DNA from: Escherichia phage vB_EcoM_WFC
Direction: 5' to 3' (one strand)
Sequence record: NC_048195.1
DNA: 64,000 nt
How positions within the stretch are numbered: the stretch's first letter is position 1; each line of letters starts with the position of its first letter. Below are positions 30,394 to 51,252 of this stretch, piece after piece. Under the pieces are notes generated by a model that had not been told where the DNA came from, did no database searches, and worked only from the letters and a program-made list of their open reading frames with translations. A program made the translations under genes and the position numbers.

Positions 30394-31356
30394 TTAAAAA
30401 TACTCCATATCGGTAATATCACGGAAGCATTTATACAAAGCAGAGCGCGGCACGTCGACGATGCCAAAGTTAAAGAATTTATACGTTAGGTATTTATCGC
30501 GATAGTTCTCGCGATTCTCCCAAAGCATTTTACGCTCTGCCATAGGCATTGAACCAGCGGAGACGCGGAAAGGAATCATTTCACCTTTCTCATCCACATA
30601 TTTTGGATTGACGACTACGAATGAGCCAAGGTATCCTTTCGCAACTAAACCTTCAGCCTCTTTTGAACGCTTGGTGCGACCCAATTCGTCAATGAATGCT
30701 TCGTTGTTATTCTCCATCATCTCAACGAAGTCTATGATCAACCCTTCTTCATCGGTCCACGGCTTGTCCTTCCACACATCACGTGACTTCGGCGTCGCGC
30801 GCCCATGCTTATATTTGCCCGTCCAAGACTTGCCATACAAGCCTTCATATCCAAGCTGGTCTGCTTCGATTTGCATCGCCGCGTACTGTTCCATATTTTC
30901 GATGTTTCGATATTCGAGAGCGCGAAGGAATGGGCGTCGACCATGGTTGATGAGATGTTGATTAACTTCAGCAACTCTAGCTCGATAGTTTGCATAACGC
31001 TTTTCAAAAGGCAGATCAGGGTCGCTGAAGTCATCAAACACCCACCATGTAAAGTTAGTGATTGCATCAGTATTCATGCATGCAGTATAGGCCTGTTGCA
31101 TGACGTTCTTATCATTTGGATTGCCGTCGATTAGCTCTCCATCAAGTCCGTGAATTAGTTCACCCAAAAAGAGGAACTCTTTTTTGATTTGAACGTTGCG
31201 CAACGGCATGCCGGAAGTGCCCATTGGCAAGTTGTCATACGCCATTGCACGTATGCCATCGACCTTGAATGACAGTCCGCAAGGCAGCGGCACGTCCTCG
31301 CCGCGCTCGATAATCTGCTTACGTTGGCAACCCTTCATTGGTTTTAATGCTGTCAT
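30394..31356 (-). CDS. ATP-dependent DNA ligase
   Basis: 320 aa; nucleotidyltransferase motif I FKVDGIRAM (KxDG) and motif IV-like EGLVAKG. Confidence 0.8.
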   Translation of the reverse strand: MTALKPMKGCQRKQIIERGEDVPLPCGLSFKVDGIRAMAYDNLPMGTSGMPLRNVQIKKEFLFLGELIHGLDGELIDGNPNDKNVMQQAYTACMNTDAITNFTWWVFDDFSDPDLPFEKRYANYRARVAEVNQHLINHGRRPFLRALEYRNIENMEQYAAMQIEADQLGYEGLYGKSWTGKYKHGRATPKSRDVWKDKPWTDEEGLIIDFVEMMENNNEAFIDELGRTKRSKEAEGLVAKGYLGSFVVVNPKYVDEKGEMIPFRVSAGSMPMAERKMLWENRENYRDKYLTYKFFNFGIVDVPRSALYKCFRDITDMEYF

Positions 31357-32555: not shown

Positions 32556-33416
32556 TTAAAACTCTTCTGCGTCGGTCGGAGTTTCATTGACAGGACCAGC
32601 GGCACCGCTTGCTTCTTCCTGCTTGCTGCGGTCGATGTTAACGTTACCGCCAACTACGTCGTTGTGGAATGCCTTGGCGACTTCGTACAGGCCTTTGTCC
32701 TGCACCAGACCTTCCAGCTCAAACTTCAGAACAGACCAGGTGTTGCCGTCTTTGGACTGGGATGCAGTACCCATGCGAACGATGTTCATAAAGGTCGGCG
32801 GCGTTTTCAGACCCTGCGGAGTCTGAACTTTCTTCTGCTGCAGAGCGGTCATCAGCATGCGAGACGGCTTGATCATGGAAGAAGTCAGAGACAGCATTGC
32901 GCTACCAAATTCACCAGTTTCTTCGTTCAACAGAATTACGAAGTGGTTGCGTGTATCTGCGTAGTAAGGAGATTTCTTCTCGTGCACCTTGCCGTTTTCG
33001 TCCGGCACGAATACCTTACCGTTGATCTCAACAGCGCGGCCTGCCGCGACTTCTGCATCAACGTGCTCTTTGGTGAATTCACCTTTAAAGCCTTTATCGT
33101 CGGACTCGCGACCGCCCCAAAGAATGAAGGTGCGTTTGAATGCGCAAGGGATGATTTGCACGCCTTTCTTGCCGTCATACAACTCACCAGTAACGGTGTT
33201 GTAAAGCATGCCAGCTTTTGCGCCAGGAACGTGTTTTGGATCATCTTCGTCGACCATAGGAGACATCTTCTGCAGTACGACGATAAAAGGAATGGCATAC
33301 GCATCGGCATCGGCACCTTCAAAACCAGCGCCAAAATCGGTCATGTCGACAAAATCAGCCATAGCGGACATCTGGGTGTTTTTCACTGCAACTTCGGTGG
33401 TTTCTTTCTTAGACAT
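32556..33416 (-). CDS. putative ssDNA-binding or annealing protein
   Basis: 286 aa; acidic C-terminal tail ending in Phe (TDAEEF), as in T7 gp2.5-type SSBs; position within the replication module. Confidence 0.4.
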   Translation of the reverse strand: MSKKETTEVAVKNTQMSAMADFVDMTDFGAGFEGADADAYAIPFIVVLQKMSPMVDEDDPKHVPGAKAGMLYNTVTGELYDGKKGVQIIPCAFKRTFILWGGRESDDKGFKGEFTKEHVDAEVAAGRAVEINGKVFVPDENGKVHEKKSPYYADTRNHFVILLNEETGEFGSAMLSLTSSMIKPSRMLMTALQQKKVQTPQGLKTPPTFMNIVRMGTASQSKDGNTWSVLKFELEGLVQDKGLYEVAKAFHNDVVGGNVNIDRSKQEEASGAAGPVNETPTDAEEF

Positions 33417-33475
33417 TTGATATTTTCCTATAGTATCAAGTTTCGTGGCAACCTGATTTCAAGATAAAGGTTAAA

Positions 33476-34033
33476 TTACTTTTTGCTTTTAGGCAAGGTT
33501 ATTTTAGCTTCTTTGTATTCAAAAACGCTAATATCTTCACTAACTGGATTGCCCGCTTCCAGCTGTTCTTTTACAAACGACTTCAGTGTAGCAGAATGAA
33601 CGCCTTGTTTCAACGTGGCTTCAACACCATCTTCACGCAGCGCAGCAACAATCTCTTGCGCCTGTTCGATTTCTTCGCGACCGAACTCAGCCGTGACGCT
33701 GGACTTGATCAAGCCGCCGTAACCGTTGTTGACAAGCCAATCGAAAACTTTTAATTCGTTTTCTTTCTTGATTGAAGCGTTCACCCTGGACTCGACCTTG
33801 ATTTTGGTCTTGTCCTCAAGCTTGATTTCGGACACGCCAAGCTCATCCATAACGCCAGGAAGCAGAACAGTTTTGATTTCACTGATGCGCTGCTTTTGCA
33901 TATCAGCTTCATCTTCAAGCTCTGTCAAAGCTTCTTGTCGTTCTGCCAGTTCAGACACTAAGCGCGCAAGGCGCTCTTGAATGCTCTCAGGAGCAACCTG
34001 CGGCAAATCATCTTCCCAATTAATATTGCTCAT
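33476..34033 (-). CDS. hypothetical protein (185 aa), acidic coiled-coil N-terminus
   Basis: Replication-module ORF; no recognisable motif. Confidence 0.45.
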   Translation of the reverse strand: MSNINWEDDLPQVAPESIQERLARLVSELAERQEALTELEDEADMQKQRISEIKTVLLPGVMDELGVSEIKLEDKTKIKVESRVNASIKKENELKVFDWLVNNGYGGLIKSSVTAEFGREEIEQAQEIVAALREDGVEATLKQGVHSATLKSFVKEQLEAGNPVSEDISVFEYKEAKITLPKSKK

Positions 34034-34367: not shown

Positions 34368-35891
34368 TTAATTCATCTTTTTGCCGTCGAGGATGTGATC
34401 AGCAAGCATAGATTTCATGCTCAGTGAACGCTGAATTTCTTCGTCGATGGTATCAACGCCAATAAAATCAACATACAACACGCTTGATTTGGTGCCGATG
34501 CGGTGATTTCGGTCTTCGGATTGCTTGCGCAACTCGTTGTCATAGTTGCAAGAATAATAGATTGCCAAGTCGGCGGCTGTAAGCGTGATTCCGATGCCTG
34601 CCGCTGCAGCGTGGCAAACCAAGACTTGTGTTCCACCGTTCTCGACTGTGTTTTTCTGGAAGTCATCAATCAAGAACTCTCGCTGCTCTTTTGACGTTTC
34701 ACCGTTGTATACACCAGTGACCACGCCTTCAGACTCAAGCCAATCCTTAATCTGGTTCATCTCTTCCTTGAAGATGGCCCAAACAATGAATTTGCGCCCT
34801 GGGTCGTCTTCCAGCACCCCTTCCACATAATCCTTAAAGGCCGTGAATCGTGGGTTGTCTTCCATGTAGACCATCTCATCATACACCTTAACAAAGCCTG
34901 ATGTCACCTGCTTCATCTTAGTGCGAGATGCGATCATCTCAAACTTAACGTTTTCTTCTTCGCCTTTGTACTCCATCAGATAGTTGTACTCATTCTTGAG
35001 TTCATCGTAGACATCGCGCTGCTTAGGCGACAACTCGAAGTCGATAAACTTGTACACCTTCTCTGGAAGGTCCGGCAAGTATTCCGCTTTTGTCGCGCGG
35101 AAATAGTGCGGCTCCATCAGCCGGATAAGCTTGTCAAGGTTTTTGTACATCGGTCGACCAAACTGGTCTTTGCGCGGCACTTGCGGAATGCCATAACCGT
35201 TGCCGCCGATTTTCTTGAGAATGGCCTGCATCTCTGGGTCGTGCGCTTCAAGTAGCACTGTGAATTCAGAGTTGAATGCACGGAACGATTTGGTGCCGAG
35301 CAATCCTGCTTCAAGGAAGTGGTATTGCATGTAAATATCCGCAGGGGAGCGCGGCAACGGCGTGCCAGAAAGGATTCGACGGGCCTTGGCCAGCCGTCCC
35401 AATTCCACAACCTTGATGGAGCGTTTGGCTGTGTTATTCTTGATGCGCGTTGATTCGTCGATGATCATCAGGCAGCGGTACTTCTTCAAGACCGACTCGA
35501 TGTGTTGATAACCTACTGGTGTGTTGACGGTATCGATGTTGAATGAGAAGATGCGCGCAGGCACTTCACCTTCAGGGTAGTGATCAGCAAACATCTTCTC
35601 CCAAAGCGCCTTGCCCTTTTTAGTTTTCATCTTATCGTTGCCGCGCCAGTAGTGCCCAATCCACTTGATGGAAAGGTGCTCTGGTGCTTCACGACGAATC
35701 CAGTTTGAGTGGACCCCGTTTGGAGCGATAACGACCATGGCGTCGAACGCGCCAGCGGTGAAGTGCTTTTCAAACTCTGCCAAAGCGGTCCAAGTTTTAC
35801 CAAGACCCTGTTCCATGAAATAGGCAAAGTATTTTCTGCGGCCTGCTTTATCAAGCGCCAGAAGCTGGTGGCGCATCCCTTGTGTTTTCAT
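34368..35891 (-). CDS. SNF2-family (DEAD/DEAH-box) helicase
   Basis: 507 aa; Walker A GLGKT, DEST(R) box, LSGTPL motif. Confidence 0.8.
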   Translation of the reverse strand: MKTQGMRHQLLALDKAGRRKYFAYFMEQGLGKTWTALAEFEKHFTAGAFDAMVVIAPNGVHSNWIRREAPEHLSIKWIGHYWRGNDKMKTKKGKALWEKMFADHYPEGEVPARIFSFNIDTVNTPVGYQHIESVLKKYRCLMIIDESTRIKNNTAKRSIKVVELGRLAKARRILSGTPLPRSPADIYMQYHFLEAGLLGTKSFRAFNSEFTVLLEAHDPEMQAILKKIGGNGYGIPQVPRKDQFGRPMYKNLDKLIRLMEPHYFRATKAEYLPDLPEKVYKFIDFELSPKQRDVYDELKNEYNYLMEYKGEEENVKFEMIASRTKMKQVTSGFVKVYDEMVYMEDNPRFTAFKDYVEGVLEDDPGRKFIVWAIFKEEMNQIKDWLESEGVVTGVYNGETSKEQREFLIDDFQKNTVENGGTQVLVCHAAAAGIGITLTAADLAIYYSCNYDNELRKQSEDRNHRIGTKSSVLYVDFIGVDTIDEEIQRSLSMKSMLADHILDGKKMN

Positions 35892-36310
35892 GACAATTCC
35901 TCTAAATACTTGATGATGTGGTGAATAGTTCCCTTCACGATTATCTCACGTTGAACGTCTGCAATATTATAACGCTTTAATTCAATCGAAGGGTGGACTA
36001 AATAAAACATCTTCTCAGAATCGACTTTAAGCAAAACAAATGATGGGTATTTCCAATCATTCCACGAAGAAAGAAAGCTGCACTGGCCTTTCTCAAATGC
36101 ATTTCTGAAAGGTGCAGTGGTGGCCCTTGCAGGCCACGATTCAAAGAACTTCATTTCAAGCCAAAAGCCGCGACCTTTCCGGTTGGTGCCGATTACGTCC
36201 GGCACACCATCACCCGTCATGGATTCGATTCTTTGAAGCTTCAATACTGATTCTGAATGCTTCTTCAGAGGCACAAAAATGTATTTTTGTTCACGGTTGT
36301 TTGTTGCCAT
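35888..36310 (-). CDS. VRR-NUC domain nuclease
   Basis: GVPDVIG ... WLEMKF fits a PD-(D/E)xK core; start set at the internal ATG 36310 because the ORF-track start would overlap the polymerase gene by 70 nt. Confidence 0.6.
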   Translation of the reverse strand: MATNNREQKYIFVPLKKHSESVLKLQRIESMTGDGVPDVIGTNRKGRGFWLEMKFFESWPARATTAPFRNAFEKGQCSFLSSWNDWKYPSFVLLKVDSEKMFYLVHPSIELKRYNIADVQREIIVKGTIHHIIKYLEELS

Positions 36311-39194
36311 CTGGATACACCTGTTTGATAACGTCGACGATGAACATATCAATGCCTTCAAGCTTGCGGCCTTTCATCAGGAAGAATGCACCGTTCCCGA
36401 CGTTCTCTGCGATGTACTTCCCGTATTTCTGGAACTTCTCTGGGCGAATCCTGAAGCGCATTGGCGAGTCGGTTGAGTCATCCTTGCACATAAGGTCGAT
36501 GAACTGAGTCTCAAGCTTGTTTCCATACTGGTCAAACTCTGCGTAGCGACCATCAGCTTGAAGACCCTTTTTAAGTTTGCCGTGCTTTGTGTAAATGCCG
36601 CGCTCAAGACGTTTACGGATGCGTGTTGCTTCGTTCTCGTCTGCCAGCACTTTCTTGGTCAGTTTGCCGATTACTATTGCACGCTCATCATCGCCTACTT
36701 CCTTCATCTGGCGTATTGAAGCGCCGGAAGTGACGCCAATAAGATATGGGTCATTATATGCCCAGCCGAACTTGGTGTGCATCTCTGTAAGGTCGCCGTA
36801 TTTGACTTCAGCATTGGCCAATGCATCCTTCTGCTTTTGCGTTAAGGTTCCGGCTTCACGTGCTTCGATGTACTTCATCGCCTTCACCATTCCGTACCCT
36901 TTAGCGTTCATGATGCCGCCGATTAGCTTTCCGTTAGCGATGGTCCAGTTCATTGAAGAGTGATCAGGGTCGATTGGCACATAATCCACGCCTTCCTTCG
37001 CAAGTTCACGTAATATCGCAATCGTCTGGTCTTCGTCCTTAGCAGCGCGTAAGCAAGCAGCGGCAAATTCCAACGGGTAGTGTCGTTTAAGCCACAAGGT
37101 CCAGTAGGTCACGACCGCGTATGACACGGAGTGTGACTTGTTAAAGCCCCATGACCCGAACGTCGCCATCGCCTGCCAAAGCTTTCTTGCATCCGCTTCC
37201 GGTACGCCATTATTTATTGCGCCTGCAACGAAGTCTTCGCCAAGCTTGTTAAAGTATTCCTCACCCTTACGGCCTGACATCGCCTTACGTACAGCGGATG
37301 TTTTCGCCCAGTCAAATGAACCAATCTCTTTAACCACGGCCATGATTTGCTCTTGGTAAAGAAACACGCCGTAAGTCTCTTTTAAGTACGGCTCAAGCTG
37401 CGGCACATCATACTCAATCGGTGCACGCCCTGCCGCGCGTTCGATGTATTTCTGGGCCATACCGGATGACAACGGGCCAGGTCGACCAAGTGCTGTCAGG
37501 TTATCGATTTTGTTAAAGTTATCAACGTGCACAAAGTTGGTTACTGAGCGTACAGCGTCACCTTCAAACTGGAAGATGCCTGACATTTTGTTTTCGTTAA
37601 GGATGTCAAGGACGCTTTGATCATCAAGCTTGATTCCGTACAGCGTTTCAGCATCTATCACGCCAGTATCAGAAATGATGCCGAGGGTACGAAGGCCCAA
37701 CGCATCAAGCTTCAAAAGGTTAAGGTATTCGCTGTCAGGCTTATCAATTTGCGCAATCCCTTCTGCAGTTACAGTACAGTAATCAGAGATTGGGTCATTA
37801 CACACAATGATTCCCGCTGCGTGAACACCTGTGTGAGACGGGTGAATCTCAAGGTCACCCATGCAACGCGCGGCGTCAGGATATTTCGCCACGAACTCTT
37901 GACCCGTGGTCGTTGTTGCAAAGGTATCCTCCAGGCCGTGACCATAACGGGCGTCACCGGATGAGTATTCAAGCAGTGCGTTTTTAATGTTGGCCGTTTC
38001 GTGGTATCCAATGTTGAACTTCTTACCAACCTGCGCCATTACTGAGTTGGCCTTAAGCGTGTTGATGTTGCCAAGCTTTGCAACGTTCATTTCGCCGTAT
38101 TTCTCTTTAAGATAATCAAACACCATATAGCGTTTGGTATCTTCAAAGTCGATGTCGATGTCAGGAAGGTCGGCGCGGCTTACGTCGATGAATCGGGCAA
38201 ACAGCAGCTTATACGGTATTGGGTCCACTTCCGTGATGCCGAGGCAATAGCAAACAAGTGAACCAGCCGATGAGCCGCGTGCAGGACCGACAAGCATTTT
38301 TGTTTTTGCGAATCGTACAAGGTCGGCTACTACCAGAAAGTATGAGTCGAAATCTTTCAGCTGAATCTGGTGAATTTCTTCGTTGAAGCGGTCCTCATAT
38401 TCCTGAGTCCATTCTTTGATGTGACCTGCTTTTAGACGGTACTCCATCCCCTCGCGAGCAAGCTTTACCATGTCACCAGCAAGGTGAATAATCGGTGCCT
38501 TACGCAATTTCAAGTCAAGTCCGACTATGCCGTTTGCTATGTCAACAGCATTGGCCGTTGCCTGATTGAGCTCATCTTCAGTCAAGATGCCTTTAAGCTG
38601 TTTGCGCAAGTCTTCCACGTCAACGATGCAATGCGGCTTCACAGTGTCGCGAACTTCCCAAGCATAAGCGAAGTCAACGTGCTCAGGAGAAGGCATGTGA
38701 TTGTATCCGGTTAAAACCAGCGGCCTTCCACCGCTACGATGAGCCAATGCCTGGCGCTTTGCCAAAAGGAACGATGATGGGTTGACGTCTATATAGTCGT
38801 AGTCCTCTGGCCGCAGCAGCTCCACGGCACCGCCACAGAATTTAACGACGCCATCGAGCGCCCCGAACTCTGCACGGGTAAGTCCACCGCGCTGCGTTGC
38901 AAGTGTTGTAGCGTTGTAAAAAGATTTTAAGTCAAGGGCCAATATCCAAGCCTTCGGTTTGAATCCCTTTTTCGGGTCCGCATCAGGGTCGATGATTGGA
39001 ATCTCCATCCCAAACATAGGCTTAATATCATTTTTCTGGCATTCCTTTTCCCAGCGAACGTGACCCCATGTATTGTTATCAACTAATGCCGCGACTTCGC
39101 AGCCCAACTCTTTGAGCCGTGCTATAATTTCAGGATGCCGTCCATAAACTTCTTTGAACGTGTAACCGCTGCGAACTCTCAATTGTGGAAACAT
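36291..39194 (-). CDS. DNA polymerase III alpha-like (DnaE-type) replicative polymerase
   Basis: 967 aa; N-terminal PHP-like domain (LRVRSGYTFKEVYG ... IKPMFGMEI) followed by polymerase core. Confidence 0.85.
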   Translation of the reverse strand: MFPQLRVRSGYTFKEVYGRHPEIIARLKELGCEVAALVDNNTWGHVRWEKECQKNDIKPMFGMEIPIIDPDADPKKGFKPKAWILALDLKSFYNATTLATQRGGLTRAEFGALDGVVKFCGGAVELLRPEDYDYIDVNPSSFLLAKRQALAHRSGGRPLVLTGYNHMPSPEHVDFAYAWEVRDTVKPHCIVDVEDLRKQLKGILTEDELNQATANAVDIANGIVGLDLKLRKAPIIHLAGDMVKLAREGMEYRLKAGHIKEWTQEYEDRFNEEIHQIQLKDFDSYFLVVADLVRFAKTKMLVGPARGSSAGSLVCYCLGITEVDPIPYKLLFARFIDVSRADLPDIDIDFEDTKRYMVFDYLKEKYGEMNVAKLGNINTLKANSVMAQVGKKFNIGYHETANIKNALLEYSSGDARYGHGLEDTFATTTTGQEFVAKYPDAARCMGDLEIHPSHTGVHAAGIIVCNDPISDYCTVTAEGIAQIDKPDSEYLNLLKLDALGLRTLGIISDTGVIDAETLYGIKLDDQSVLDILNENKMSGIFQFEGDAVRSVTNFVHVDNFNKIDNLTALGRPGPLSSGMAQKYIERAAGRAPIEYDVPQLEPYLKETYGVFLYQEQIMAVVKEIGSFDWAKTSAVRKAMSGRKGEEYFNKLGEDFVAGAINNGVPEADARKLWQAMATFGSWGFNKSHSVSYAVVTYWTLWLKRHYPLEFAAACLRAAKDEDQTIAILRELAKEGVDYVPIDPDHSSMNWTIANGKLIGGIMNAKGYGMVKAMKYIEAREAGTLTQKQKDALANAEVKYGDLTEMHTKFGWAYNDPYLIGVTSGASIRQMKEVGDDERAIVIGKLTKKVLADENEATRIRKRLERGIYTKHGKLKKGLQADGRYAEFDQYGNKLETQFIDLMCKDDSTDSPMRFRIRPEKFQKYGKYIAENVGNGAFFLMKGRKLEGIDMFIVDVIKQVYPDGNKQP

Positions 39195-39736
39195 TATTTA
39201 CTCCAGATGTCATATACGCCAATTTGTTGGCAGACTTTGTGCAGTAATATTACGTCGTCTAATGCACGGTGCTTCTGTTCATATTTTCCGAAATATAATT
39301 CATACAGCTCTTGAAGCTTAACTCTTCGGCCAAAAATAGGCAAGGTTTGCTCAACTGTACATATGTTTATTTCTGGAAAATTAACATCATCAAGCGTAAG
39401 TCCTTCGCGCTGTAGTGCATAATCAAGAATGTTTTTATCGAACGCATGGTTGTGCGCGATAGTTGCATCAGTCTTCTTGAAGATTTCTTTTAGCTGCGGG
39501 ACGAAATTGATGAACGGTGGATTGCACTCAAGATCTTCATTTGTTAATCCGGTAATCTTTGTGATAATTTCTTCAATCACGATTTCAGGATTAATTATGA
39601 ATTCAAACGTTTCAAGAATCTCTTTGCCGTCTGTCAGCAAGCCTGCAAATTCAATAGGGCGCGGCTGCATCCCAAGCGGCGCTTTCGGGTGCACGGTCAA
39701 TCCGGTTGTTTCGAAGTCATAAGGGAGAAATAACAC
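39194..39736 (-). CDS. DnaQ-like 3'-5' exonuclease (proofreading subunit)
   Basis: 180 aa; Exo I YDFETTGL, Exo II HNHAFD, Exo III HRALDD. Confidence 0.85.
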   Translation of the reverse strand: MLFLPYDFETTGLTVHPKAPLGMQPRPIEFAGLLTDGKEILETFEFIINPEIVIEEIITKITGLTNEDLECNPPFINFVPQLKEIFKKTDATIAHNHAFDKNILDYALQREGLTLDDVNFPEINICTVEQTLPIFGRRVKLQELYELYFGKYEQKHRALDDVILLHKVCQQIGVYDIWSK

Positions 39737-39790
39737 ATTAGCCTCCTACAAAAAGGCCGCCCATTAGGACGGCCACAGATTCACGATTCG

Positions 39791-40342
39791 TTATACAGTG
39801 TACGGAGTACCGTCTTGATTCAAGCGCACGATAAACTTCAAATCAACGCCGATGATTTCACGCGTATCAAAGATCACATAGTTGTAACGACGTTGACCAG
39901 CAATGTTTGGGTTGGTGTGAGAGTCGGTCACAACTTCCTGCGCAACCTGAATGCCTTCTTCTTTAAAGAACTTGCGCCATTCAGCAAGTTCAGCGGCAGT
40001 CACGTGCATACCAAGATGGCTAACCTGATTGTCGTGCGCATCGATGTATTCGATGTTTTCGTGAATCCAGTTGCAACCTTTTGTATAGTCAAGAATTTCA
40101 AGCTCAAGAGGCTTACCAGCGCCGCCATCGGTGCCGTTGCCAGCCTGATAGTTGAAGCGCAAGTCAGCTTCGTTGGTGCAATCGCCGCGCTGACCCTTAA
40201 AGACATCAGCTTCAAATACGCGACCAGTAGCAACAACGTGATCATGGAACCATTCTGTCAGGCCGATTTTAGCCAGGAAATTCTGTGCGCGCTGAGCACC
40301 TGGAATTGACAGGGCGATTTGTTCAATTTTAAAATGTGGCAT
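39791..40342 (-). CDS. hypothetical protein (183 aa), possibly glyoxalase/VOC-like fold
   Basis: Weak His/Glu pattern only; low-confidence fold guess. Confidence 0.4.
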   Translation of the reverse strand: MPHFKIEQIALSIPGAQRAQNFLAKIGLTEWFHDHVVATGRVFEADVFKGQRGDCTNEADLRFNYQAGNGTDGGAGKPLELEILDYTKGCNWIHENIEYIDAHDNQVSHLGMHVTAAELAEWRKFFKEEGIQVAQEVVTDSHTNPNIAGQRRYNYVIFDTREIIGVDLKFIVRLNQDGTPYTV

Positions 40343-40438
40343 TTTGTTTCCTTAATTAAATATTATTGATTAATTACTGTGTTGTCTTCGTCCTGTTTCT
40401 TTTCAGGAGCGGGTGTGACAACTTCAAATGTTCGTGAT

Positions 40439-41122
40439 TTATTTACCAAATGGAATATCAGTGCCAGACATAAAGCGCCATGCGCCCGTAATTAAGATAT
40501 GGCGAATGAAGTCAGCAATTACTTGCGGCTCAGTCTCCAATCCATTCATCAATGCCTTTTTCTGGTATTCAGCGGCGTATTCAGGAGTCCAGCCGCGAGT
40601 CGCGCAAACGGCATCTTCAATCTGTTTAGACATGCCAGTGCCGCGCAACTTGTTAGGACTAATAGAGAATACCGTGATGCCGTACTTAGGCGTAAGTTCG
40701 TGAGCCATCTGCTTGCTGATCATAAGCGCAGCAGCCTTGGATGCATTATAACATAAGCTGGACGTCATAGGAATATGCGCAGCGTTGGAAACGATGTTGA
40801 TCACAAAGCCTTTGTTGTCGATAAGACTTTTCAGCGCAGCCTGAGTCGTGTTAACGAAAGAGAATGCGTTGGTGTGCATAACGCGGTTAAACTCTTCATA
40901 GTTTACATCTTCAAACCAATTGTTAGAGTTGACACCAGCACAGTTGATCAAGCCTTCAACATCATATGGGCTTAAAATTTCTTTCATCTGTTTAGCATCG
41001 CGGACGTCATATCCGTATGCTGAATCGATGCCAAGCACGTTATGACCGTAAGCGCCAAGGGTGTCAAAAATAGATTTACCAAGACCGGAATTGGAACCTG
41101 TTACAACAATTACTTTTTTCAT
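40439..41122 (-). CDS. short-chain dehydrogenase/reductase (SDR) family oxidoreductase
   Basis: 227 aa; TGSNSGLG cofactor-binding motif and YNASK catalytic YxxxK. Confidence 0.8.
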   Translation of the reverse strand: MKKVIVVTGSNSGLGKSIFDTLGAYGHNVLGIDSAYGYDVRDAKQMKEILSPYDVEGLINCAGVNSNNWFEDVNYEEFNRVMHTNAFSFVNTTQAALKSLIDNKGFVINIVSNAAHIPMTSSLCYNASKAAALMISKQMAHELTPKYGITVFSISPNKLRGTGMSKQIEDAVCATRGWTPEYAAEYQKKALMNGLETEPQVIADFIRHILITGAWRFMSGTDIPFGK

Positions 41123-41188
41123 TTATTTATCCTTTTTTGGACTTCGTTTCGATGAGGTAAATATAACTCATCGAAACGCACAAGTAAA

Positions 41189-42064
41189 CTATTTATTGAA
41201 ATTAATATTATGGGTGTTGACAAGACGTTCACACATGGCGCTATAAACACCATCATCGTGTATCGAGTCTTCATGCTTCAGGCCGCTGATTGCGAAGCGT
41301 GTAAGCTTGACAATCTTAAGCTCGAACAGGTGCCACATGTGGTAGTCTTCCGGTGTCTTCAACGTTACGCCATTAGGGAACAACACCTGCATAACCTGAC
41401 CTACCATCACAGCGTTATCGCCATAAACGGCATTGCGCTCACGGAAGGTCGCGGCCATCGCATCAAGAATATCAGCAGCGGTTGCTGGGGCTTGTTGTTC
41501 AACTTCAACAAGTTTAGTCTCTTCTTTCCCTGTTGCACTTGGATCAACTGCTAATTGTTGCACCACTTCACCTGCCTTGCAAAGATTAAATGTAAAGGCG
41601 ATTTTATTTTGCGCCATGGAATTATAATGCAAAGCTTCTTCTTGCATCCGCGCGAGTACGTCTTGTCTATCTTCAAATACGTTGATTATTCGATAATCGC
41701 CGTGTCGCAATACATACGATAACCATGCAGATTTCATAACAGTTGATGGACGCTTGTCGCCATGTTCTCTCATCTTGATTGTGAATTCATCAAAAGGGAA
41801 AACGTTGTCCAGACGTTCAAAAGTGACTTGTCTGTATTTTTCTGGTCTTGCAGTCCAATATTCAACCGCCTCACCGCGAAGTGATGCCGTCTCTACTGCT
41901 GACGCAATGTTAGGATAGAACTGATCATAACCAATGCCGCTGTGGTAATCATCATAGTCGGACAACGGGCCTGCCACCCTGATACGGTCTAAGCGCCAAC
42001 GGTCATCAAACAGAGTTCCGTCAAGGTCGAATACGTTTAAGATTTGGTTATTTTTGATACTCAT
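41189..42064 (-). CDS. HAD-superfamily phosphatase fused to an unknown C-terminal domain
   Basis: 291 aa; N-terminal FDLDGTLFDD (DxDxT) motif; C-terminal ~130 aa unassigned. Confidence 0.65.
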   Translation of the reverse strand: MSIKNNQILNVFDLDGTLFDDRWRLDRIRVAGPLSDYDDYHSGIGYDQFYPNIASAVETASLRGEAVEYWTARPEKYRQVTFERLDNVFPFDEFTIKMREHGDKRPSTVMKSAWLSYVLRHGDYRIINVFEDRQDVLARMQEEALHYNSMAQNKIAFTFNLCKAGEVVQQLAVDPSATGKEETKLVEVEQQAPATAADILDAMAATFRERNAVYGDNAVMVGQVMQVLFPNGVTLKTPEDYHMWHLFELKIVKLTRFAISGLKHEDSIHDDGVYSAMCERLVNTHNINFNK

Positions 42065-42864: not shown

Positions 42865-42877
42865 TTTAATTATCCTA

Positions 42878-43324
42878 TTAACGGTAGTTAACTAGTTGCT
42901 GATCACCAGAGAAGGTGCAATGATAAACGAATTGTGCGTTATAAAGCAACTGAAAACTTTTCTTTGGTTCATTATTAGAACTCATTGATGTAAAGATTTC
43001 TGCACCAGAACGGTTTTCACCAATAAGGTTGATAAAGCCGCCAGTTGAACGAGGTTGGACGAAAGTGAAACGTTGCATCCACGGAGTGCGGTTGGCACCT
43101 TTCCCTGTGAATCCCTGAATCTGAATATTCAGACCTTCTTGCTCGTTCACACCGATGTAAGTGGTAATTGTTGCGCCAGTCGTCGCTGCAGTCTTGCCGT
43201 CCATCGCTTCGCAATCGTAAACAGCGATTGAATCGGAAGTACGGACAGCGGCTTCAGTCGCTTCCATATACATGGTTCCGAGAATAGCAGTTGCGGCAAG
43301 CGCGATTCCAGTGATGCGTTTCAT
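42878..43324 (-). CDS. secreted protein with N-terminal signal peptide
   Basis: 148 aa; MKRITGIALAATAILGTMYMEA then polar mature part. Confidence 0.45.
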   Translation of the reverse strand: MKRITGIALAATAILGTMYMEATEAAVRTSDSIAVYDCEAMDGKTAATTGATITTYIGVNEQEGLNIQIQGFTGKGANRTPWMQRFTFVQPRSTGGFINLIGENRSGAEIFTSMSSNNEPKKSFQLLYNAQFVYHCTFSGDQQLVNYR

Positions 43325-45518: not shown

Positions 45519-46703
45519 TTAACGCGCTTTCAAATCACGGTACACGGTCAGATTCTTCTTAGCGCGGGTGATTGCGGTGTACATCATCTTGGAGTACGGG
45601 ACGCCGCGCAAGATTTCTTCCAGCACGCACACATTATCCCACTCGCTGCCTTGCGATTTGTGCACCGTGATTACATAGCCATAGTCCATCCCGCCAACAG
45701 CGCGTTGCGCTTCTTTGCGCACTTCCTGATCAGTAGAGAAGGAAAGAGGATTGATCTTCACCTTTATATCTTTACCATCAGTTAATGAACGCAAGTTGAC
45801 ATACATTATTTCATTCGACTCGTCTTCATCCCTTTCAAAGTCCGGCACTGGTTCATAGCTAATAACAATCCCTTGCTCGCCATTACAGAATCCTGGCCCG
45901 TGCTGGTTGAAGGTGCAAATAACTTTCTCGCCGATTCCTGGCATTGGCGTTATACGTCCGCTCACTTGCCGTAATAATGAATTCCATTTATCTTTGGTGC
46001 TATTATAGGAGCAAATAATTTGATCATCTTCGCCCATGAATTTCTTCAATGCAGTAACGCGCGGCGATTCTGCCAATACTTTGACGTCATCGTATTCACG
46101 CGGAGGAAGGCGGTTGCCTTGGCGCACGAAGAAGGAGGCGCGGATTATATTGGACTCTTTCCCTTGCCGCATGATTTCGGTTAACAGCACGTCAACGGCA
46201 TCTTCAGTAAAGTAGGCGGCGGCTTTTACCGGAGGGACTTGTCCAATGTCGCCTAATGCCAGGACAGGGATGCGGTGATCAAGAAGGCGCTCTGTGTCCC
46301 ACTCGCCAACCATCGACGCTTCATCGAGTACAACAAGGTGCGGCCTTTCATCCAGCTTTGACTTTCTCGAAAAGATTGGCTCATTGTCGTCATTTACGCC
46401 GCGCACGTTATAGATGAACTGGTGAAGGGTCTTAGCGCCACGACAGCCTTTTTGCTTTAATCGGCTTGCAGCCTTTCCGGTCGGCGCAATATAGATAGCG
46501 CCGTACTCACCGACACAGCGGCGCACAATCTCACGAGCAATAGAGGTTTTACCAGTCCCTGCATAGCCAGCAATGAAAAACACACGCTTCGTCGTTTTAC
46601 CGTCCTGCAATCGCTTGTACCATGCAACGGCCTTCTCGATGGCATCGATTTGTTGCGCGTTAAACTGAATAACTGGCTCATCATTAAATTCTGGAATGTT
46701 CAT
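45519..46703 (-). CDS. SF1 DNA helicase (Dda/RecD-like)
   Basis: 394 aa; Walker A GYAGTGKTS, Walker B VVLDEASM, C-terminal VHKSQGSEWD motif. Confidence 0.8.
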   Translation of the reverse strand: MNIPEFNDEPVIQFNAQQIDAIEKAVAWYKRLQDGKTTKRVFFIAGYAGTGKTSIAREIVRRCVGEYGAIYIAPTGKAASRLKQKGCRGAKTLHQFIYNVRGVNDDNEPIFSRKSKLDERPHLVVLDEASMVGEWDTERLLDHRIPVLALGDIGQVPPVKAAAYFTEDAVDVLLTEIMRQGKESNIIRASFFVRQGNRLPPREYDDVKVLAESPRVTALKKFMGEDDQIICSYNSTKDKWNSLLRQVSGRITPMPGIGEKVICTFNQHGPGFCNGEQGIVISYEPVPDFERDEDESNEIMYVNLRSLTDGKDIKVKINPLSFSTDQEVRKEAQRAVGGMDYGYVITVHKSQGSEWDNVCVLEEILRGVPYSKMMYTAITRAKKNLTVYRDLKAR

Positions 46704-47189: not shown

Positions 47190-48272
47190 ATGGCTAGTTT
47201 AAGAGAAGAAGCAAAAATAATTGAAGAGTTTTTAACAGAACTCCAAAGAGGCATTCCAGAAGATGAGCGCGTCATGACGGTGTTTGCTCCTGAAGCAACG
47301 GTACAGACCGACGAGCGCGGCAAGAAGATTAACAGCAGCTTCTGGCCTAAGCCTTGGAAGTTGGGCAAGCCGCTCATGCAGCACCAAAACGGCTATGCTT
47401 GCATCAGTTCAATGCGTAAGTCTCCCAACCCAAAGACGGGTGAGATGCGATACTGGCGTACAGAGTCTGCCTTTGGTCACGGCATGGCGATGATGGTTGA
47501 TGACATCGGTCACGGTAAAGGGTCCAAAGGTGATTTAGATTTGGAATTCTTTTTCGAGCGACTGAAGCCGACTGTCATCGTCGAGACTTCACCGAACAAC
47601 CACCAGCTTTGGTACTTCTTTAAAGAACCGATTGACCATCTTATTCAGTTCAAAGCGTTCCTTGGGTCTTTCGTTAACATGGTACTCAAGAAGGGCGGCG
47701 ACAACACGATTAAAGACGTAACGCGCGTGGGTCGTGTTCCTGGGTGCATCAATAACAAGCGTGTGACTCACGACGGCCCCTATAAATATGTCGATGAGAA
47801 CGGCGACCCGTTCCGCTGCCGACTTGTCCATGCAGACTACTCCTTGCGCTACACCATCGAAGACATTTGTCAGGCATTTGGCTTTCACGTCGTCATGCCG
47901 CAAAAGCGTGAGATTCAAATTGACGTCGATGAATACAAGTATGATGCTGTTTGGTATAAAATAGCCCAGCAGATTCTAGCGCGCAACAAGATGGGTGAAG
48001 GGTCTGATGGCGACGTCATCGAGAATATGTCAGGCAAGTGTCGCATAATCTGTCCTTGGGGTGAAGAGCACACCAACGGCGACCCGTATGGCGCTTACTT
48101 TCGCGGCCCTATCCCTGGTGCAGAACATGAATTTGTGTTCGGTTGCGCCCACGACTGCCACCGGAAAGGGGAAGGCAAGAAAGGTTGGACTGCTTTTGTT
48201 GAAGCAATCGTCATGCCTTATATTGAGAATCAACTTGACATGATAAATCGTCGTGCAGGTGGCATAAAATAG
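47190..48272 (+). CDS. DNA primase-like protein (archaeo-eukaryotic primase / Prim-Pol-like) with C-terminal Cys/His cluster
   Basis: 360 aa; acidic MMVDDIGHG and ETSPNNHQLWYFF resemble AEP motifs; C-terminal CPWGEEH ... CAHDCH zinc-binding-like cluster. Confidence 0.55.
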   Translation: MASLREEAKIIEEFLTELQRGIPEDERVMTVFAPEATVQTDERGKKINSSFWPKPWKLGKPLMQHQNGYACISSMRKSPNPKTGEMRYWRTESAFGHGMAMMVDDIGHGKGSKGDLDLEFFFERLKPTVIVETSPNNHQLWYFFKEPIDHLIQFKAFLGSFVNMVLKKGGDNTIKDVTRVGRVPGCINNKRVTHDGPYKYVDENGDPFRCRLVHADYSLRYTIEDICQAFGFHVVMPQKREIQIDVDEYKYDAVWYKIAQQILARNKMGEGSDGDVIENMSGKCRIICPWGEEHTNGDPYGAYFRGPIPGAEHEFVFGCAHDCHRKGEGKKGWTAFVEAIVMPYIENQLDMINRRAGGIK

Positions 48273-49581: not shown

Positions 49582-51252
49582 ATGTCAATTAATAATGACA
49601 ATCTTCCAGAGGATACAGGTGATGAATTTGGTGCAATCTTTGACGAAATTCAAGATGCAGGCGTTTCGGAAGAAATGCAGGCAGCAGAGCAGCAAGGCAC
49701 CAGAGCTAAAATCAGCCTTCAACATAAAGCTGTTGAAAAAGATTCAGAGCGCATGGAATGCTACGGTGAAGAAGACTTGGTTGAAAGAGCACGCTTGCTC
49801 GCCTCACTTCAGGTAATCAAGTTCCCTCACTACAAGCCTACCAAAGATGACTTCGTTCTACAGGCAGACCGGACGAGTGACATGAACCGTTATGCGGTTT
49901 TCGACGCGTTGTTTGATAAGGGAAGTGGCGTTGTTCCATTCCCTCACAAAGATACTTTTCGTGGGCGCTTAGTCGACCATCGCGGCGAAACATTCACTGA
50001 CCGTACCTTGGAAGTCACAGAGATAGTTGCCGCTGTCGACGCAGCAGGGTTGTCCAACCCAAACTCACGTCAGGTCGCTCAATCCTATAAGGAATGGGCC
50101 ATGCGTTATCAGCGCGACGACCTGATGGACTTCTTCTACAAGAAGCTGCCTGAATGGGACGGTACTGCGCGCATCGAGAAATACCTTATCGAGCTATTCC
50201 GACCGTTCGATACAGAGTTAAACCGACAAATCGGTGTGTATTTTTGGCTATCGCTCTACAACCGCCTGACCAACCCTGGCTGTCAAGCGCCAATCTCCAT
50301 CGCGCTCATCGGCGGCCAGAACGCAGGGAAGAGTTATTTTAGCAAGCTGCTTTGCGAAGCTATTATGAACGACCGCCACGCAACACCGATTCCGTTGAAC
50401 TTAGCCGCGCAAAACTTCAACCCGTTCTTGCGAGCTATCACGGGTCGCTCGATTATCGCGAACGTCGGCGAGATGACAGGCTTTAAAAAGGCCGACATCG
50501 AAAACATGAAAGCATTCCTGACTAAGACGGAAGATGACCTGGACTTCAAATTTGAAGATACGCAGGTTAAACCACGCCAGTGGATTGCTATCATGGACGG
50601 CAACGAATACGCAGGCATGCAGCGTGATGACACGGGCAACCGTCGTGTGTATCCTATCTTTGTTGGCCAACTCGCTGACAAGGACGGGCAACCGAACTGG
50701 TCGAAAGACTTCCAAGCTGACCTTTCCACTTTGAAAGAAGACGTTTGGCAGCTTATGGCTGAGTGCGCTGCGTGGATGGAGAAGCACGGCGAAGCAGGCT
50801 ATAACGCGTTTGTTGGTGAAACATCTCGCATGCTTACTGAGTTCAGTAAAAACGAAATGGAACGCGCTCGCGGCGTTATCCGTGATGAGATGGTTGATAA
50901 CGACCTTGTTGAAGTCGTCATCACCGCGCCTTATGACCGACATCACAGCGGACGCTGGCACATCACCAGTGGTGCTATTGCTATGGGATTCAGAGCGAAG
51001 TGCGGCAAGTCGCCTTTCTCTCGTACCCTTGCGCCACACATGTCGAAGCTTGGTTTTGAGCCTGCGACCTATCGCAACCAGCGCGGTTACTTTACGCCGC
51101 TGATTAAGAATGAAGCAGGGGAATACATTTCTGATTTGATGACCATCTTAGCGTATCTTATCCGCGATGAGTCTGACCCTGAAGATATTGAATTCTTGAA
51201 GAAGGTTATTGAGCGTAAACGTTCTTTGGGAAGAGATAAGGATGAATTCTGA
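49582..51252 (+). CDS. VirE-family P-loop NTPase (primase-associated helicase-like)
   Basis: 556 aa; Walker A IGGQNAGKS; AGGAGG RBS; position next to the primase gene. Confidence 0.7.
   Translation: MSINNDNLPEDTGDEFGAIFDEIQDAGVSEEMQAAEQQGTRAKISLQHKAVEKDSERMECYGEEDLVERARLLASLQVIKFPHYKPTKDDFVLQADRTSDMNRYAVFDALFDKGSGVVPFPHKDTFRGRLVDHRGETFTDRTLEVTEIVAAVDAAGLSNPNSRQVAQSYKEWAMRYQRDDLMDFFYKKLPEWDGTARIEKYLIELFRPFDTELNRQIGVYFWLSLYNRLTNPGCQAPISIALIGGQNAGKSYFSKLLCEAIMNDRHATPIPLNLAAQNFNPFLRAITGRSIIANVGEMTGFKKADIENMKAFLTKTEDDLDFKFEDTQVKPRQWIAIMDGNEYAGMQRDDTGNRRVYPIFVGQLADKDGQPNWSKDFQADLSTLKEDVWQLMAECAAWMEKHGEAGYNAFVGETSRMLTEFSKNEMERARGVIRDEMVDNDLVEVVITAPYDRHHSGRWHITSGAIAMGFRAKCGKSPFSRTLAPHMSKLGFEPATYRNQRGYFTPLIKNEAGEYISDLMTILAYLIRDESDPEDIEFLKKVIERKRSLGRDKDEF

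What the first reader, a model, noticed from the sequence alone, without database searches (positions are those of the whole stretch)
34368..39736. Self-contained replisome: DnaE-type polymerase with separate DnaQ exonuclease, SNF2 and Dda-like helicases, VRR-NUC nuclease, ligase, primase-like protein and VirE-like NTPase
The phage encodes a bacterial-type PHP-domain Pol III alpha homolog with a separately encoded proofreading exonuclease, rather than a family A or B polymerase. The VRR-NUC gene overlaps the polymerase gene end by about 20 nt. The set is notable for its completeness.
Basis: partly seen in the sequence, partly recalled or inferred. Interest (0 to 1): 0.4.

Follow-up and report, generated by a model that had tools for sequence, protein, structure and literature searches.

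The report
Known Wifcevirus phage DNA replication genes

Summary
The window is a Wifcevirus-type E. coli myophage. The region is 95-97% identical in DNA to EC150, vB_Eco4M-7, FEC19, WFH and BASEL phages Bas98-101, where these genes are already annotated.

Coordinates 34368-39736 hold four overlapping minus-strand genes:
- a DEDDh DnaQ-like exonuclease (180 aa)
- a DnaE-type C-family polymerase (967 aa)
- a 140-aa PD-(D/E)xK nuclease
- an SNF2 helicase (507 aa)

The ligase, Dda-like helicase, RepB-type primase and VapE-like NTPase are real but lie outside those coordinates.

- The small nuclease does not reach Pfam VRR_NUC. Its model resembles the Holliday-junction resolvases RecU and Hjc more than VRR-Nuc.
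- "Self-contained" is overstated. No clamp, clamp loader, SSB, primer-removal nuclease or topoisomerase was recognisable.
- The polymerase has a degenerate PHP metal site, no canonical clamp-binding motif and no tau-binding domain. It ends in an OB fold.

A rough tree puts the polymerase in a phage lineage with PB1-like phages and some actinophages. It is not nested within its host's DnaE. Verdict: real, correctly recognised in outline, already known, low interest.

The parts
39755..39774 (-). GC-rich hairpin (8 bp, 7 G-C) followed by TTTTT. It sits in the intergenic gap just upstream of the dnaQ ribosome-binding site. It is terminator-like and marks the upstream edge of the four-gene block.
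   Evidence: scan; sequence. The count of terminator-like sites in the region is no higher than in shuffles, so only its placement supports it.
39194..39736 (-). DnaQ-like DEDDh 3'-5' exonuclease, 180 aa, GTG start after a GGAGG site. Predicted proofreading subunit. It consists of the exonuclease domain only, with no epsilon-type C-terminal tail.
   Evidence: Pfam RNase_T 9.6e-22. PHROG 192 'DNA polymerase exonuclease subunit' 2.3e-37. Best PDB match is 2p1j, a PolC-type exonuclease, E 4e-6. Motifs found: ExoI D7-x-E9, ExoII HNHAFD (D100), ExoIII H156-x4-D161. Its stop codon overlaps the polymerase ATG by 1 nt (TAATG).
36291..39194 (-). DnaE-type C-family DNA polymerase, 967 aa. Domain order: degenerate PHP (about 1-240), palm/thumb/fingers (about 241-780), a shortened helix-hairpin-helix region (about 740-820), and a C-terminal OB fold (about 838-960). 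No tau-binding domain.
35888..36310 (-). 140-aa PD-(D/E)xK nuclease with a Holliday-junction-resolvase fold (RecU/Hjc/VRR-Nuc-like). Its start overlaps the polymerase 3' end by 20 nt.
34368..35891 (-). SNF2-family helicase/translocase, 507 aa. Its ATG overlaps the nuclease stop codon (ATGA).
   Evidence: Pfam SNF2-rel_dom 8.6e-22 and Helicase_C 2.6e-11. PHROG 62 at 8.6e-107. Walker A GLGKT at residue 29. Junction sequence.
30394..31356 (-). Minimal ATP-dependent DNA ligase, 320 aa. Outside the finding's coordinates.
   Evidence: PDB 7obn DNA ligase E 4.9e-33; Chlorella virus ligase E about 2e-24. PHROG 114 at 2.3e-42. Pfam matches are below threshold only.
45519..46703 (-). Dda-like SF1B helicase, 394 aa. 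Outside the finding's coordinates.
   Evidence: Pfam AAA_30 1.9e-22 and UvrD_C_2 6.2e-13. PHROG 325 'Dda-like helicase' 1.4e-99.
47190..48272 (+). RepB-type (archaeo-eukaryotic primase superfamily) primase, 360 aa. Outside the finding's coordinates.
   Evidence: Pfam RepB_primase 4.5e-36. PHROG 4861 'DNA primase' 9e-198.
49582..51252 (+). VapE/VirE-like P-loop NTPase, 556 aa. It is the candidate replicative (SF3/D5-type) helicase partner of the primase. Outside the finding's coordinates.
   Evidence: Pfam VapE-like_dom 1.6e-28 and DUF5906 2.6e-4. PHROG 4630 at 4e-254 and PHROG 256 'DNA helicase' 6.9e-36.

Best explanation
This is the conserved DNA-replication module of a Wifcevirus-type lytic E. 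coli myophage.

**Core operon.** Four genes have overlapping start and stop codons, which suggests translational coupling: dnaQ-like exonuclease, dnaE-like polymerase, a small nuclease and an SNF2 helicase.

**Polymerase and proofreading.** The polymerase is the phage's only DNA polymerase and most likely its replicase. Its PHP domain has lost the metal ligands, so it cannot proofread. Proofreading is supplied in trans by the co-translated DEDDh exonuclease. This is the same division of labour as E. coli alpha/epsilon. The shown parts are domain content, catalytic motifs and PHP degeneracy. The physical complex and the activity are inferred.

**Nuclease and SNF2 protein.** The small nuclease has a Holliday-junction-resolvase fold. 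Together with the SNF2 translocase it probably remodels and cuts branched replication or recombination intermediates (inferred).

**Other replication genes nearby.** Priming and unwinding are provided by a RepB-type primase and a VapE/D5-like NTPase encoded nearby. A Dda-like helicase and an ATP-dependent ligase are also present.

**What is missing.** The set is not complete. No clamp, clamp loader, SSB, primer-removal nuclease or topoisomerase is recognisable. The polymerase lacks a canonical beta-clamp motif and the tau-binding domain. These functions must therefore come from the host or from unrecognised phage proteins, or the enzyme works without them.

**Origin.** The polymerase belongs to a phage-borne DnaE lineage shared with PB1-like phages and some actinophages. 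It is not a recent copy of the host gene.
For: **Identity of the phage**
- The 5.4-kb region matches 27 phage records over at least 80% of its length, at 90-99% identity. All but one are named Escherichia or Shigella phages; the other is listed as Wifcevirus WFH. The same four genes are annotated there (Bas101).

**Conservation of gene order**
- The same order, with the same overlaps, occurs in Pbunavirus DL68 (1-nt, 8-nt and 4-nt overlaps). The same order occurs in BcepF1.

**Polymerase**
- Pfam palm and fingers domains.
- NCBIfam Pol III alpha superfamily cut-off passed. The DnaE model scores 496 bits, DnaE2 331 bits and PolC 45 bits.
- PDB DnaE structures match at E about 1e-85.
- The catalytic motifs PDIDIDF (344) and KLDALGL (495) are present.

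**PHP domain**
- The nine metal-ligand positions read R, R, E, N/gap, E, gap, G, H (D in most relatives), P. The consensus is H, H, D, H, E, H, C, D, H (consensus from PMC3666897 Table 1).

**Exonuclease**
- All DEDDh motifs are present.

**Polymerase C-terminus**
- It is an OB fold with nothing after it.

**Nuclease**
- D38, E52, K54 and Q76 are invariant. RecU and Hjc are the top structural matches.

**Missing components**
- None is annotated in Bas101. None is found by Pfam in 20 early-region ORFs or in the unknown proteins of the module.
- No clamp-motif match was found in the polymerase.

**Lineage**
- The best bacterial DnaE genes among 185,579 species genomes are only 28-37% identical and come from many phyla.
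- In a neighbour-joining tree the PB1-like clade is monophyletic (100/100). It is sister to Gordonia and Mycobacterium phage DnaE (100/100) and lies outside the gammaproteobacterial DnaE1 group.
Against: - No experiment on this polymerase family was found in the literature searched, so replicase function, the exonuclease-polymerase complex and nuclease specificity are all inferences.
- The domain architecture without a tau-binding domain is also that of DnaE2 and some DnaE3 enzymes (PMC3919608). Some GenBank records label PB1-like homologs 'dnaE2'.
- Absence of a clamp or SSB rests on profile searches. About 60 small phage proteins remain unassigned, so a divergent SSB or processivity factor could be hidden among them.
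- The clamp-motif test is a simple pattern search. Non-canonical motifs would be missed.
- The tree is neighbour-joining on one alignment, without DnaE2 or PolC references. The deep grouping of all phage sequences has low support (28-38/100), and long-branch attraction is possible.
Confidence: 0.85

Rival explanations
1. The replisome really is self-contained. A phage sliding clamp or other processivity factor, an SSB and a primer-removal nuclease are present but too divergent to recognise. Candidates are the conserved unknown proteins of the module (183, 148, 331, 281, 108, 87 aa) or the roughly 40 small early genes.
For: - Several unknown proteins are conserved across Wifcevirus and Pbunavirus and sit inside the replication module.
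- The 281-aa protein has a long charged region, a small globular C-terminal domain and an acidic tail.
- The polymerase lacks the motifs needed to use the host clamp and tau.
- Very fast infection cycles have been reported for this genus (PMC11990801).
Against: - No Pfam, PHROG, NCBIfam or PDB-sequence signal for a clamp, clamp loader, SSB, RNase H or FEN in any of these proteins.
- Homologs of the 331-aa protein are annotated by others as an oxidoreductase or a polysaccharide deacetylase, which suggests an enzyme.
- Homologs of the 281-aa protein are annotated as a virion structural protein in several PB1-like phages.
Confidence: 0.15
2. The 967-aa enzyme is a DnaE2-like error-prone or repair polymerase, and the host Pol III replicates the phage genome.
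For: - The architecture lacks the tau-binding C-terminal domain, as in all DnaE2 (PMC3919608).
- Some depositors annotate PB1-like homologs as 'dnaE2: error-prone DNA polymerase' (H109 and H112).
Against: - It scores higher against the DnaE model (496 bits) than the DnaE2 model (331 bits).
- It is co-translated with an intact proofreading exonuclease.
- It is the only polymerase in the genome and sits with a primase, helicases and a ligase.
- No ImuA/ImuB-type partners were seen.
Confidence: 0.05
3. The 140-aa protein is a true member of the VRR-NUC family, merely too divergent for the Pfam model.
For: - The family profile hits the VRR-Nuc structure 4qbo at E 8.2e-4, and the alignment covers GxPD...ExK...Q.
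- 5 of 144 homologs touch Pfam VRR_NUC weakly (best E 0.0027).
- VRR_NUC 4qbn appears in both fold searches.
[quoted passage not shown] This agrees with the model's secondary structure.
Against: - The protein gives no Pfam VRR_NUC match even at E<10.
- RecU matches the profile slightly better (E 5.7e-4).
Confidence: 0.3
4. The polymerase gene is a recent capture of the enterobacterial host's dnaE.
For: Its best-scoring NCBIfam model is the general DnaE equivalog PRK05673.
Against: - Only 33% identical to E. coli DnaE.
- Equally distant (28-37%) from DnaE of many phyla.
- 56-68% identical over the full length to polymerases of Pseudomonas, Burkholderia, Pantoea and Luteibacter phages.
- It clusters with phage enzymes in the tree, apart from the E. 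coli/Idiomarina group.
Confidence: 0.02

Closest known systems
Replication module of Wifcevirus phages (EC150, vB_Eco4M-7, FEC19, WFH, BASEL Bas98-101)
   Same: 95-97% DNA identity over the whole 5.4-kb block. Same four genes in the same order and on the same strand. Same flanking ligase, MazG, ThyX, Dda-like helicase and two 'primase' genes.
   Different: Only small sequence differences. For example, the polymerase is 967 aa here and 965 aa in Bas101 and P0001, which makes the overlap with the nuclease gene 20 nt instead of 14 nt.
Replication module of Pbunavirus (PB1-like Pseudomonas phages, e.g. DL68) and Bcepfunavirus BcepF1
   Same: Same order of exonuclease, DnaE, small nuclease and SNF2, with overlapping stop and start codons. 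ThyX, polynucleotide kinase/phosphatase-like, Dda-like helicase and ligase genes lie nearby. The polymerases are 56-61% identical over the full length and 62-68% identical in the core.
   Different: Different hosts. The PB1-like polymerase is longer (about 1035 aa). BcepF1 has a small extra ORF between the exonuclease and the polymerase.
E. coli Pol III core (alpha = DnaE, epsilon = DnaQ)
   Same: C-family palm, thumb and fingers with the same catalytic aspartates. A variant PHP domain that has lost metal ligands. Proofreading by a separately encoded DEDDh exonuclease. An OB domain after the fingers.
   Different: - 33% identity.
- The PHP domain is shorter and more degenerate: the only canonical ligand clearly retained is the glutamate (plus an aspartate in most relatives), against four in E. 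coli.
- About 65 residues of the beta-binding region, including QADMF, are absent.
- There is no tau-binding domain.
- The exonuclease has no C-terminal alpha-binding tail.
- No theta, clamp or clamp loader is encoded.
DnaE-like polymerases of actinobacteriophages (e.g. Gordonia phage Marietta, Mycobacterium phage Prager)
   Same: Phage-borne DnaE enzymes. They are sister to the PB1-like clade in the neighbour-joining tree (100/100). In Prager the gene also neighbours a FabG-like reductase and ThyX.
   Different: 36-38% identity in the core. The proteins are longer (about 1080-1100 aa). The surrounding genes differ, and no adjacent DnaQ gene was seen in the stretches fetched.
RecU, Hjc and VRR-Nuc Holliday-junction resolvases (PD-(D/E)xK superfamily)
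   Same: Same core fold in the model and the same D...ExK...Q catalytic signature. Standalone VRR-Nuc proteins are dimeric four-way-junction cutters (PMC4103454).
   Different: No Pfam family threshold is reached. Sequence identity to any solved member is 9-19%. The activity is untested.

Membership tests
C-family DNA polymerase, DnaE type | Pol III alpha palm domain with the three catalytic aspartates | tested here: met
   Pfam PF07733 at 3e-63. PDIDIDF at residue 344 and KLDALGL at residue 495 align with the E. coli D401/D403/D555 region.
C-family DNA polymerase, DnaE type | Fingers domain | tested here: met
   Pfam PF17657 at 1e-37. Aligned with T. aquaticus and E. coli DnaE through residue about 784-798.
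C-family DNA polymerase, DnaE type | Curated family score cut-offs | tested here: inconclusive
   Passes the superfamily model TIGR00594 (475.2 bits against 434.35). Fails every equivalog cut-off, for example PRK05673 at 496 bits against 1002. It is therefore a family member but not an equivalog of bacterial DnaE.
C-family DNA polymerase, DnaE type | N-terminal PHP domain with nine metal ligands (needed for intrinsic exonuclease activity) | tested here: not met
   The domain is present but weak (Pfam 26.6 bits against a cut-off of 26.4). The ligand positions read R6, R8, E15, N40/gap, E64, gap, G122, H166, P168. The consensus is H H D H E H C D H (PMC3666897).
C-family DNA polymerase, DnaE type | Internal beta-clamp-binding motif (E. 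coli QADMF) in the (HhH)2 / beta-binding domain | tested here: not met
   By alignment, E. coli residues about 873-960 have only about 26 counterpart residues. No Q-x-x-[LIM]-x-F or Q[LIVMA]x[LIM]F match in the polymerase. No Pfam HHH_6 hit.
C-family DNA polymerase, DnaE type | OB domain after the fingers | tested here: met
DnaE1 (replicative, tau-coupled) | C-terminal tau-binding domain | tested here: not met
   The protein ends 7-10 residues after the OB fold. E. coli residues 1073-1160 have no counterpart.
PolC | DEDDh exonuclease inserted in the PHP domain, with N-terminal NTD and OB domains | tested here: not met
   PolC models score only 41-45 bits, on short stretches. The exonuclease is a separate gene.
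DnaQ / DEDDh exonuclease | Exo I, II and III motifs and the Pfam RNase_T threshold | tested here: met
   78.7 bits against a cut-off of 24. D7, E9, D100, H156 and D161 are present.
Pol III epsilon (E. coli type) | C-terminal segment that binds the alpha PHP domain, and a clamp-binding motif | tested here: not met
   The protein is 180 aa and ends with the exonuclease domain. Its alignment with E. coli epsilon stops at residue 174 of 243. It has no canonical clamp motif.
VRR-NUC (Pfam PF08774) | Match to the family model at its gathering score | tested here: not met
   No match even at E<10. Only 5 of 144 homologs match, and only weakly (best E 0.0027).
VRR-NUC (Pfam PF08774) | PD-(D/E)xK core fold with the GxPD...ExK...Q signature | tested here: inconclusive
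RecU / Hjc Holliday-junction resolvases | Fold similarity, and dimeric cleavage of four-way junctions | tested here: inconclusive
   Fold similarity is met on a predicted model. The protein itself gives no Pfam hit, RecU and Hjc included, and only 1 of 144 homologs touches each of RecU and Hjc. Dimerisation and cleavage are not testable with these tools.
SNF2 helicase | SNF2 N-terminal domain plus Helicase_C at Pfam thresholds | tested here: met
   78 bits against 24.9, and 44.2 bits against 23.5.
Genus Wifcevirus | High nucleotide identity to recognised members | tested here: met
   95-97% identity over 5.4 kb to WFH, FEC19, vB_Eco4M-7 and Bas98-101. Whole-genome identity was not computed.

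The most novel reading that the evidence does not exclude
The PB1-like/Wifcevirus DnaE replicase works without the bacterial clamp/tau system. It lacks the clamp motif and the tau-binding domain, and the phage encodes no recognisable clamp. It would then get its processivity from an unrecognised phage factor or from its own OB domain and exonuclease partner. In addition, the adjacent gene cluster may supply a modified nucleotide that this dedicated polymerase incorporates. That cluster comprises ThyX, an SDR reductase, a HAD phosphatase, a VOC-like protein, a 331-aa unknown protein and MazG. A modified nucleotide would explain the unexplained insensitivity of Wifcevirus phages to the tested restriction-modification systems other than EcoP1_I.
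Probability: 0.1. Interest if true: 0.5.

Novelty: already known. Interest (0 to 1): 0.1.

Why it matters
It matters little as a discovery. The genes are deposited and named in dozens of near-identical phage genomes. Phage-encoded DnaE polymerases are a documented class, though the rarest of the three phage polymerase families (947 of 18,382 genomes in PMC11348598). The check still yields practical points:
- The small gene after the polymerase is annotated as 'DNA helicase' in public records, through PHROG 2165, but it is a resolvase-fold nuclease.
- The module should not be described as a complete replisome.
- This polymerase lineage is an untested case of a C-family enzyme that lacks the usual clamp and tau contacts. 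It comes from a phage genus reported to replicate unusually fast and to resist restriction by an unknown mechanism.

Tried and rejected
- **Pfam VRR_NUC for the 140-aa protein.** No hit even at E<10. A single-sequence PDB search gave only noise.
- **Word-indexed homolog search for the nuclease.** It found only 6 close relatives. The exhaustive profile search was needed to reach 311.
- **Clamp, clamp loader, SSB, RNase H and topoisomerase.** Nothing in Pfam, PHROG or NCBIfam scans of the module's unknown proteins. Nothing in Pfam scans of 20 early-region ORFs. Nothing in the Bas101 annotation.
- **Clamp-binding motif patterns.** Only two chance-like 'QIGVY' matches, inside the folded parts of DnaQ and VapE.
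- **PDB sequence searches of the 331-aa and 183-aa neighbours.** Nothing significant.
- **RNA and repeat scans.** Rfam, tRNA and repeat scans of the window or region found nothing. Antisense ORFs inside the polymerase gene have no support.
- **Promoter and terminator counts.** They do not exceed shuffled controls. Only the hairpin at 39774-39755 is well placed.
- **Host-capture origin of the polymerase.** Rejected.
- **Rejected readings of the 967-aa protein.** PolC type and a non-polymerase PHP protein were both rejected.
Full report
**What the window is.** The 5.4-kb finding matches 33 phage records by megablast. Of these, 27 match over at least 80% of its length, at 90-99% identity. They include Escherichia phages EC150, vB_Eco4M-7, FEC19 and WFH, the BASEL phages Bas98-101, and one Shigella phage, that is, the genus Wifcevirus. 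In the curated Bas101 genome the same stretch is annotated as 'DNA polymerase exonuclease subunit', 'DNA polymerase', 'DNA helicase' and 'DNA helicase'. A ligase, MazG, ThyX, a Dda-like helicase and two 'DNA primase' genes lie around it. The BASEL paper describes Wifcevirus as 66-72-kb myoviruses distantly related to Pbunavirus (PMC11990801).

**Checking the observation.** On the minus strand the ORFs are 39194-39736 (180 aa, GTG), 36291-39194 (967 aa), 35888-36361 and 34368-35891 (507 aa).

- Pfam assigns the 967-aa protein to DNA_pol3_alpha (3e-63), DNA_pol3_finger (1e-37) and, marginally, PHP.
- Pfam assigns the 180-aa protein to RNase_T.
- Pfam assigns the 507-aa protein to SNF2-rel_dom plus Helicase_C.
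- The small gene most likely starts at ATG 36310 (MATNNREQ...), as in relatives. This gives 140 aa and an overlap of exactly 20 nt with the polymerase gene.
- The exonuclease stop and polymerase start share one base (TAATG).
- The nuclease stop and SNF2 start share four bases (ATGA).
- A GC-rich hairpin with a T-run lies just upstream of the exonuclease gene. A promoter-like site follows the SNF2 gene. Neither class of site is enriched over shuffles.

- Ligase at 30394-31356: PDB 7obn E 5e-33, Chlorella virus ligase E 2e-24.
- Dda-like helicase at 45519-46703.
- RepB-type primase at 47190-48272.
- VapE-like NTPase at 49582-51252.

**The polymerase.** It is a DnaE-type C-family enzyme.

- It passes the NCBIfam Pol III alpha superfamily cut-off. 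It scores 496 bits on the DnaE model, 331 on the DnaE2 model and about 45 on PolC models. It reaches no equivalog cut-off.
- It aligns with T. aquaticus, E. coli and M. tuberculosis DnaE structures at E 1e-78 to 1e-85 over residues about 241-798.
- It is 33% identical to E. coli DnaE.
- The catalytic PDIDIDF and KLDALGL motifs are present.

Three features differ from the host enzyme.

- *PHP domain.* The nine PHP metal-ligand positions defined in PMC3666897 are almost all replaced: R, R, E, N/gap, E, gap, G, H (D in most relatives), P. The PHP domain therefore cannot be an exonuclease. [quoted passage not shown]
- *Beta-binding region.* By alignment, most of the E. coli beta-binding region (about 873-960, including QADMF) has no counterpart. 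No clamp-motif pattern occurs in the protein.

**The exonuclease.** It has all DEDDh motifs (D7, E9, D100, H156, D161). It is most like PolC-type exonuclease domains. It is only the catalytic domain, without the C-terminal tail by which E. coli epsilon binds alpha. How it binds the polymerase, if it does, could not be tested.

**The small nuclease.**

- Pfam gives nothing, even at E<10.
- PHROG 2165 matches at 6e-35 but is named 'DNA helicase'. That name has been carried into GenBank annotations.
- An exhaustive profile search found 311 relatives. In an alignment of 144 of them, D38, E52, K54 and Q76 are invariant.
- Only 5 of the 144 touch Pfam VRR_NUC weakly. One touches RecU and one touches Hjc.
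- The family profile hits RecU (E 5.7e-4) and the VRR-Nuc structure 4qbo (E 8.2e-4) about equally, across the GxPD...ExK...Q signature.

All of these are Holliday-junction-resolving PD-(D/E)xK enzymes. Standalone VRR-Nuc proteins are dimeric junction cutters (PMC4103454). I therefore call it a resolvase-fold nuclease. The VRR-NUC label is not established. No other resolvase is annotated in Bas101, which fits this role.

**Completeness.** No sliding clamp, clamp loader, SSB, RNase H/flap nuclease or topoisomerase appears in the full Bas101 annotation. None appears in Pfam, PHROG or NCBIfam scans of the unknown proteins of the module. None appears in Pfam scans of 20 early-region ORFs. 'Self-contained' is therefore not supported by any recognisable gene. 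Many small proteins remain unassigned, so hidden factors cannot be excluded.

**How common, and where it comes from.**

- The four-gene order with overlapping junctions recurs in Pbunavirus DL68 and in BcepF1.
- Homologs of the polymerase occur in 1412 of 50,697 phage records. Of these, 375 are full-length, essentially the PB1-like supergroup. The rest are mostly actinophages and Bacillus phages.
- A survey of 18,382 Caudoviricetes genomes counted 947 C-family polymerases (PMC11348598).
- In 185,579 species-representative bacterial genomes, the best matches are ordinary dnaE genes of many phyla at 28-37% identity. There are no close prophage copies.
- I built a neighbour-joining tree of the polymerase core (42 sequences, 507 columns, 100 bootstraps). 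The PB1-like clade is monophyletic (100). It is sister to Gordonia phage Marietta and Mycobacterium phage Prager (100). It lies outside the E. coli/Idiomarina/gammaproteobacterial group. Deeper nodes are unresolved (28-38).
- This is a rough tree without DnaE2 or PolC references.

**Mechanism proposed.**

- *Shown:* gene content, overlaps, catalytic motifs, degenerate PHP, missing clamp and tau elements, OB terminus, resolvase-like fold, and conservation across phage genera.
- *Inferred:* the exonuclease and polymerase are made together and act as a proofreading replicase. The RepB-type primase and the VapE/D5-like NTPase prime and unwind. The ligase seals. The SNF2 protein and the nuclease process branched intermediates. 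Clamp, SSB and primer removal are borrowed from the host, provided by unknown phage proteins, or dispensable.

**Verdict.** However, the module is the standard, already annotated replication cassette of a known phage genus, and it is less complete than claimed. Nothing else was found in the region: no Rfam families, tRNAs or meaningful repeats.

Noticed in passing
window 39791-44385 (-) and 31359-31982 (-): A nucleotide-metabolism cluster sits directly upstream of the polymerase operon. It comprises a 183-aa protein (weak VOC/glyoxalase hint), a FabG-like SDR, a HAD/PNKP-like phosphatase, ThyX, a 148-aa unknown and a 331-aa unknown. Homologs of the 331-aa protein are annotated elsewhere as 'oxidoreductase' or 'polysaccharide deacetylase'. 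A MazG-like protein lies further downstream. [quoted passage not shown] A DNA modification pathway is a possible link.
   Followed up: partly
window 35888-36310 (-): Public annotations call this resolvase-fold nuclease a 'DNA helicase'. This applies to PHROG 2165, Bas98-101 and BcepF1 gp79. It is an annotation error that propagates through pharokka-type pipelines.
   Followed up: yes
window 44520-45365 (-): This 281-aa protein has about 190 residues of Lys/Glu/Ala-rich low-complexity sequence. A conserved globular C-terminal domain of about 90 aa and an acidic tail follow. Only the C-terminal domain is conserved in PB1-like phages. It is variously annotated 'TolA protein' or 'structural protein'. 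Function unknown.
   Followed up: partly
homologs P0115, P0095, P0103: Some polymerases of this family are 1036-1232 aa long and cover only 71-83% of the query in one piece. P0115 carries a Pfam intein-splicing domain (PF14890). This suggests inteins inserted in the DnaE gene of some relatives.
   Followed up: no
L089 (Mycobacterium phage Prager) 1-4725: A FabG-like reductase, a DnaE-like polymerase and ThyX are neighbours in an actinophage too. The same trio occurs in the window. The recurrent SDR-ThyX pairing may reflect a folate or flavin-related reductase serving ThyX.
   Followed up: no
window 32556-34033 (-): Two genes just downstream of the SNF2 helicase match Pfam families named after cyanophage Pam3: Pam3_Gp34 at 4e-86 and DUF7307/gp33-like at 7e-37. 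The corresponding BcepF1 genes are noted as similar to phiJL001 gp10 and gp11. This is a widely conserved pair of unknown function inside replication modules.
   Followed up: no
Genome-contig scan: No bacterial genome among 185,579 species representatives carries a polymerase more than 37% identical to this one. This is consistent with the phage group being strictly lytic, with no prophage copies.
   Followed up: partly
window 36291-36310: The length of the polymerase C-terminus varies among near-identical phages: 967 aa ending ...DGNKQP here and in P0002, 965 aa in P0001 and Bas101. This changes the overlap with the nuclease gene from 20 nt to 14 nt.
   Followed up: partly
window 31983-32498 (-) with nested 32066-32344 (-): A spanin pair with the o-spanin embedded in the i-spanin gene (annotated in Bas101) sits between MazG and the Pam3-like genes. 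These are lysis genes interleaved with replication genes on the same strand.
   Followed up: no
L094 (Escherichia phage CMS-2020a, 109-kb circular record): An unannotated E. coli 'phage' record carries a different DnaE homolog, 33% identical in the core. In the tree it groups with Rhizobium phage RHEph10, not with Wifcevirus. E. coli phages therefore carry at least two unrelated DnaE lineages.
   Followed up: no
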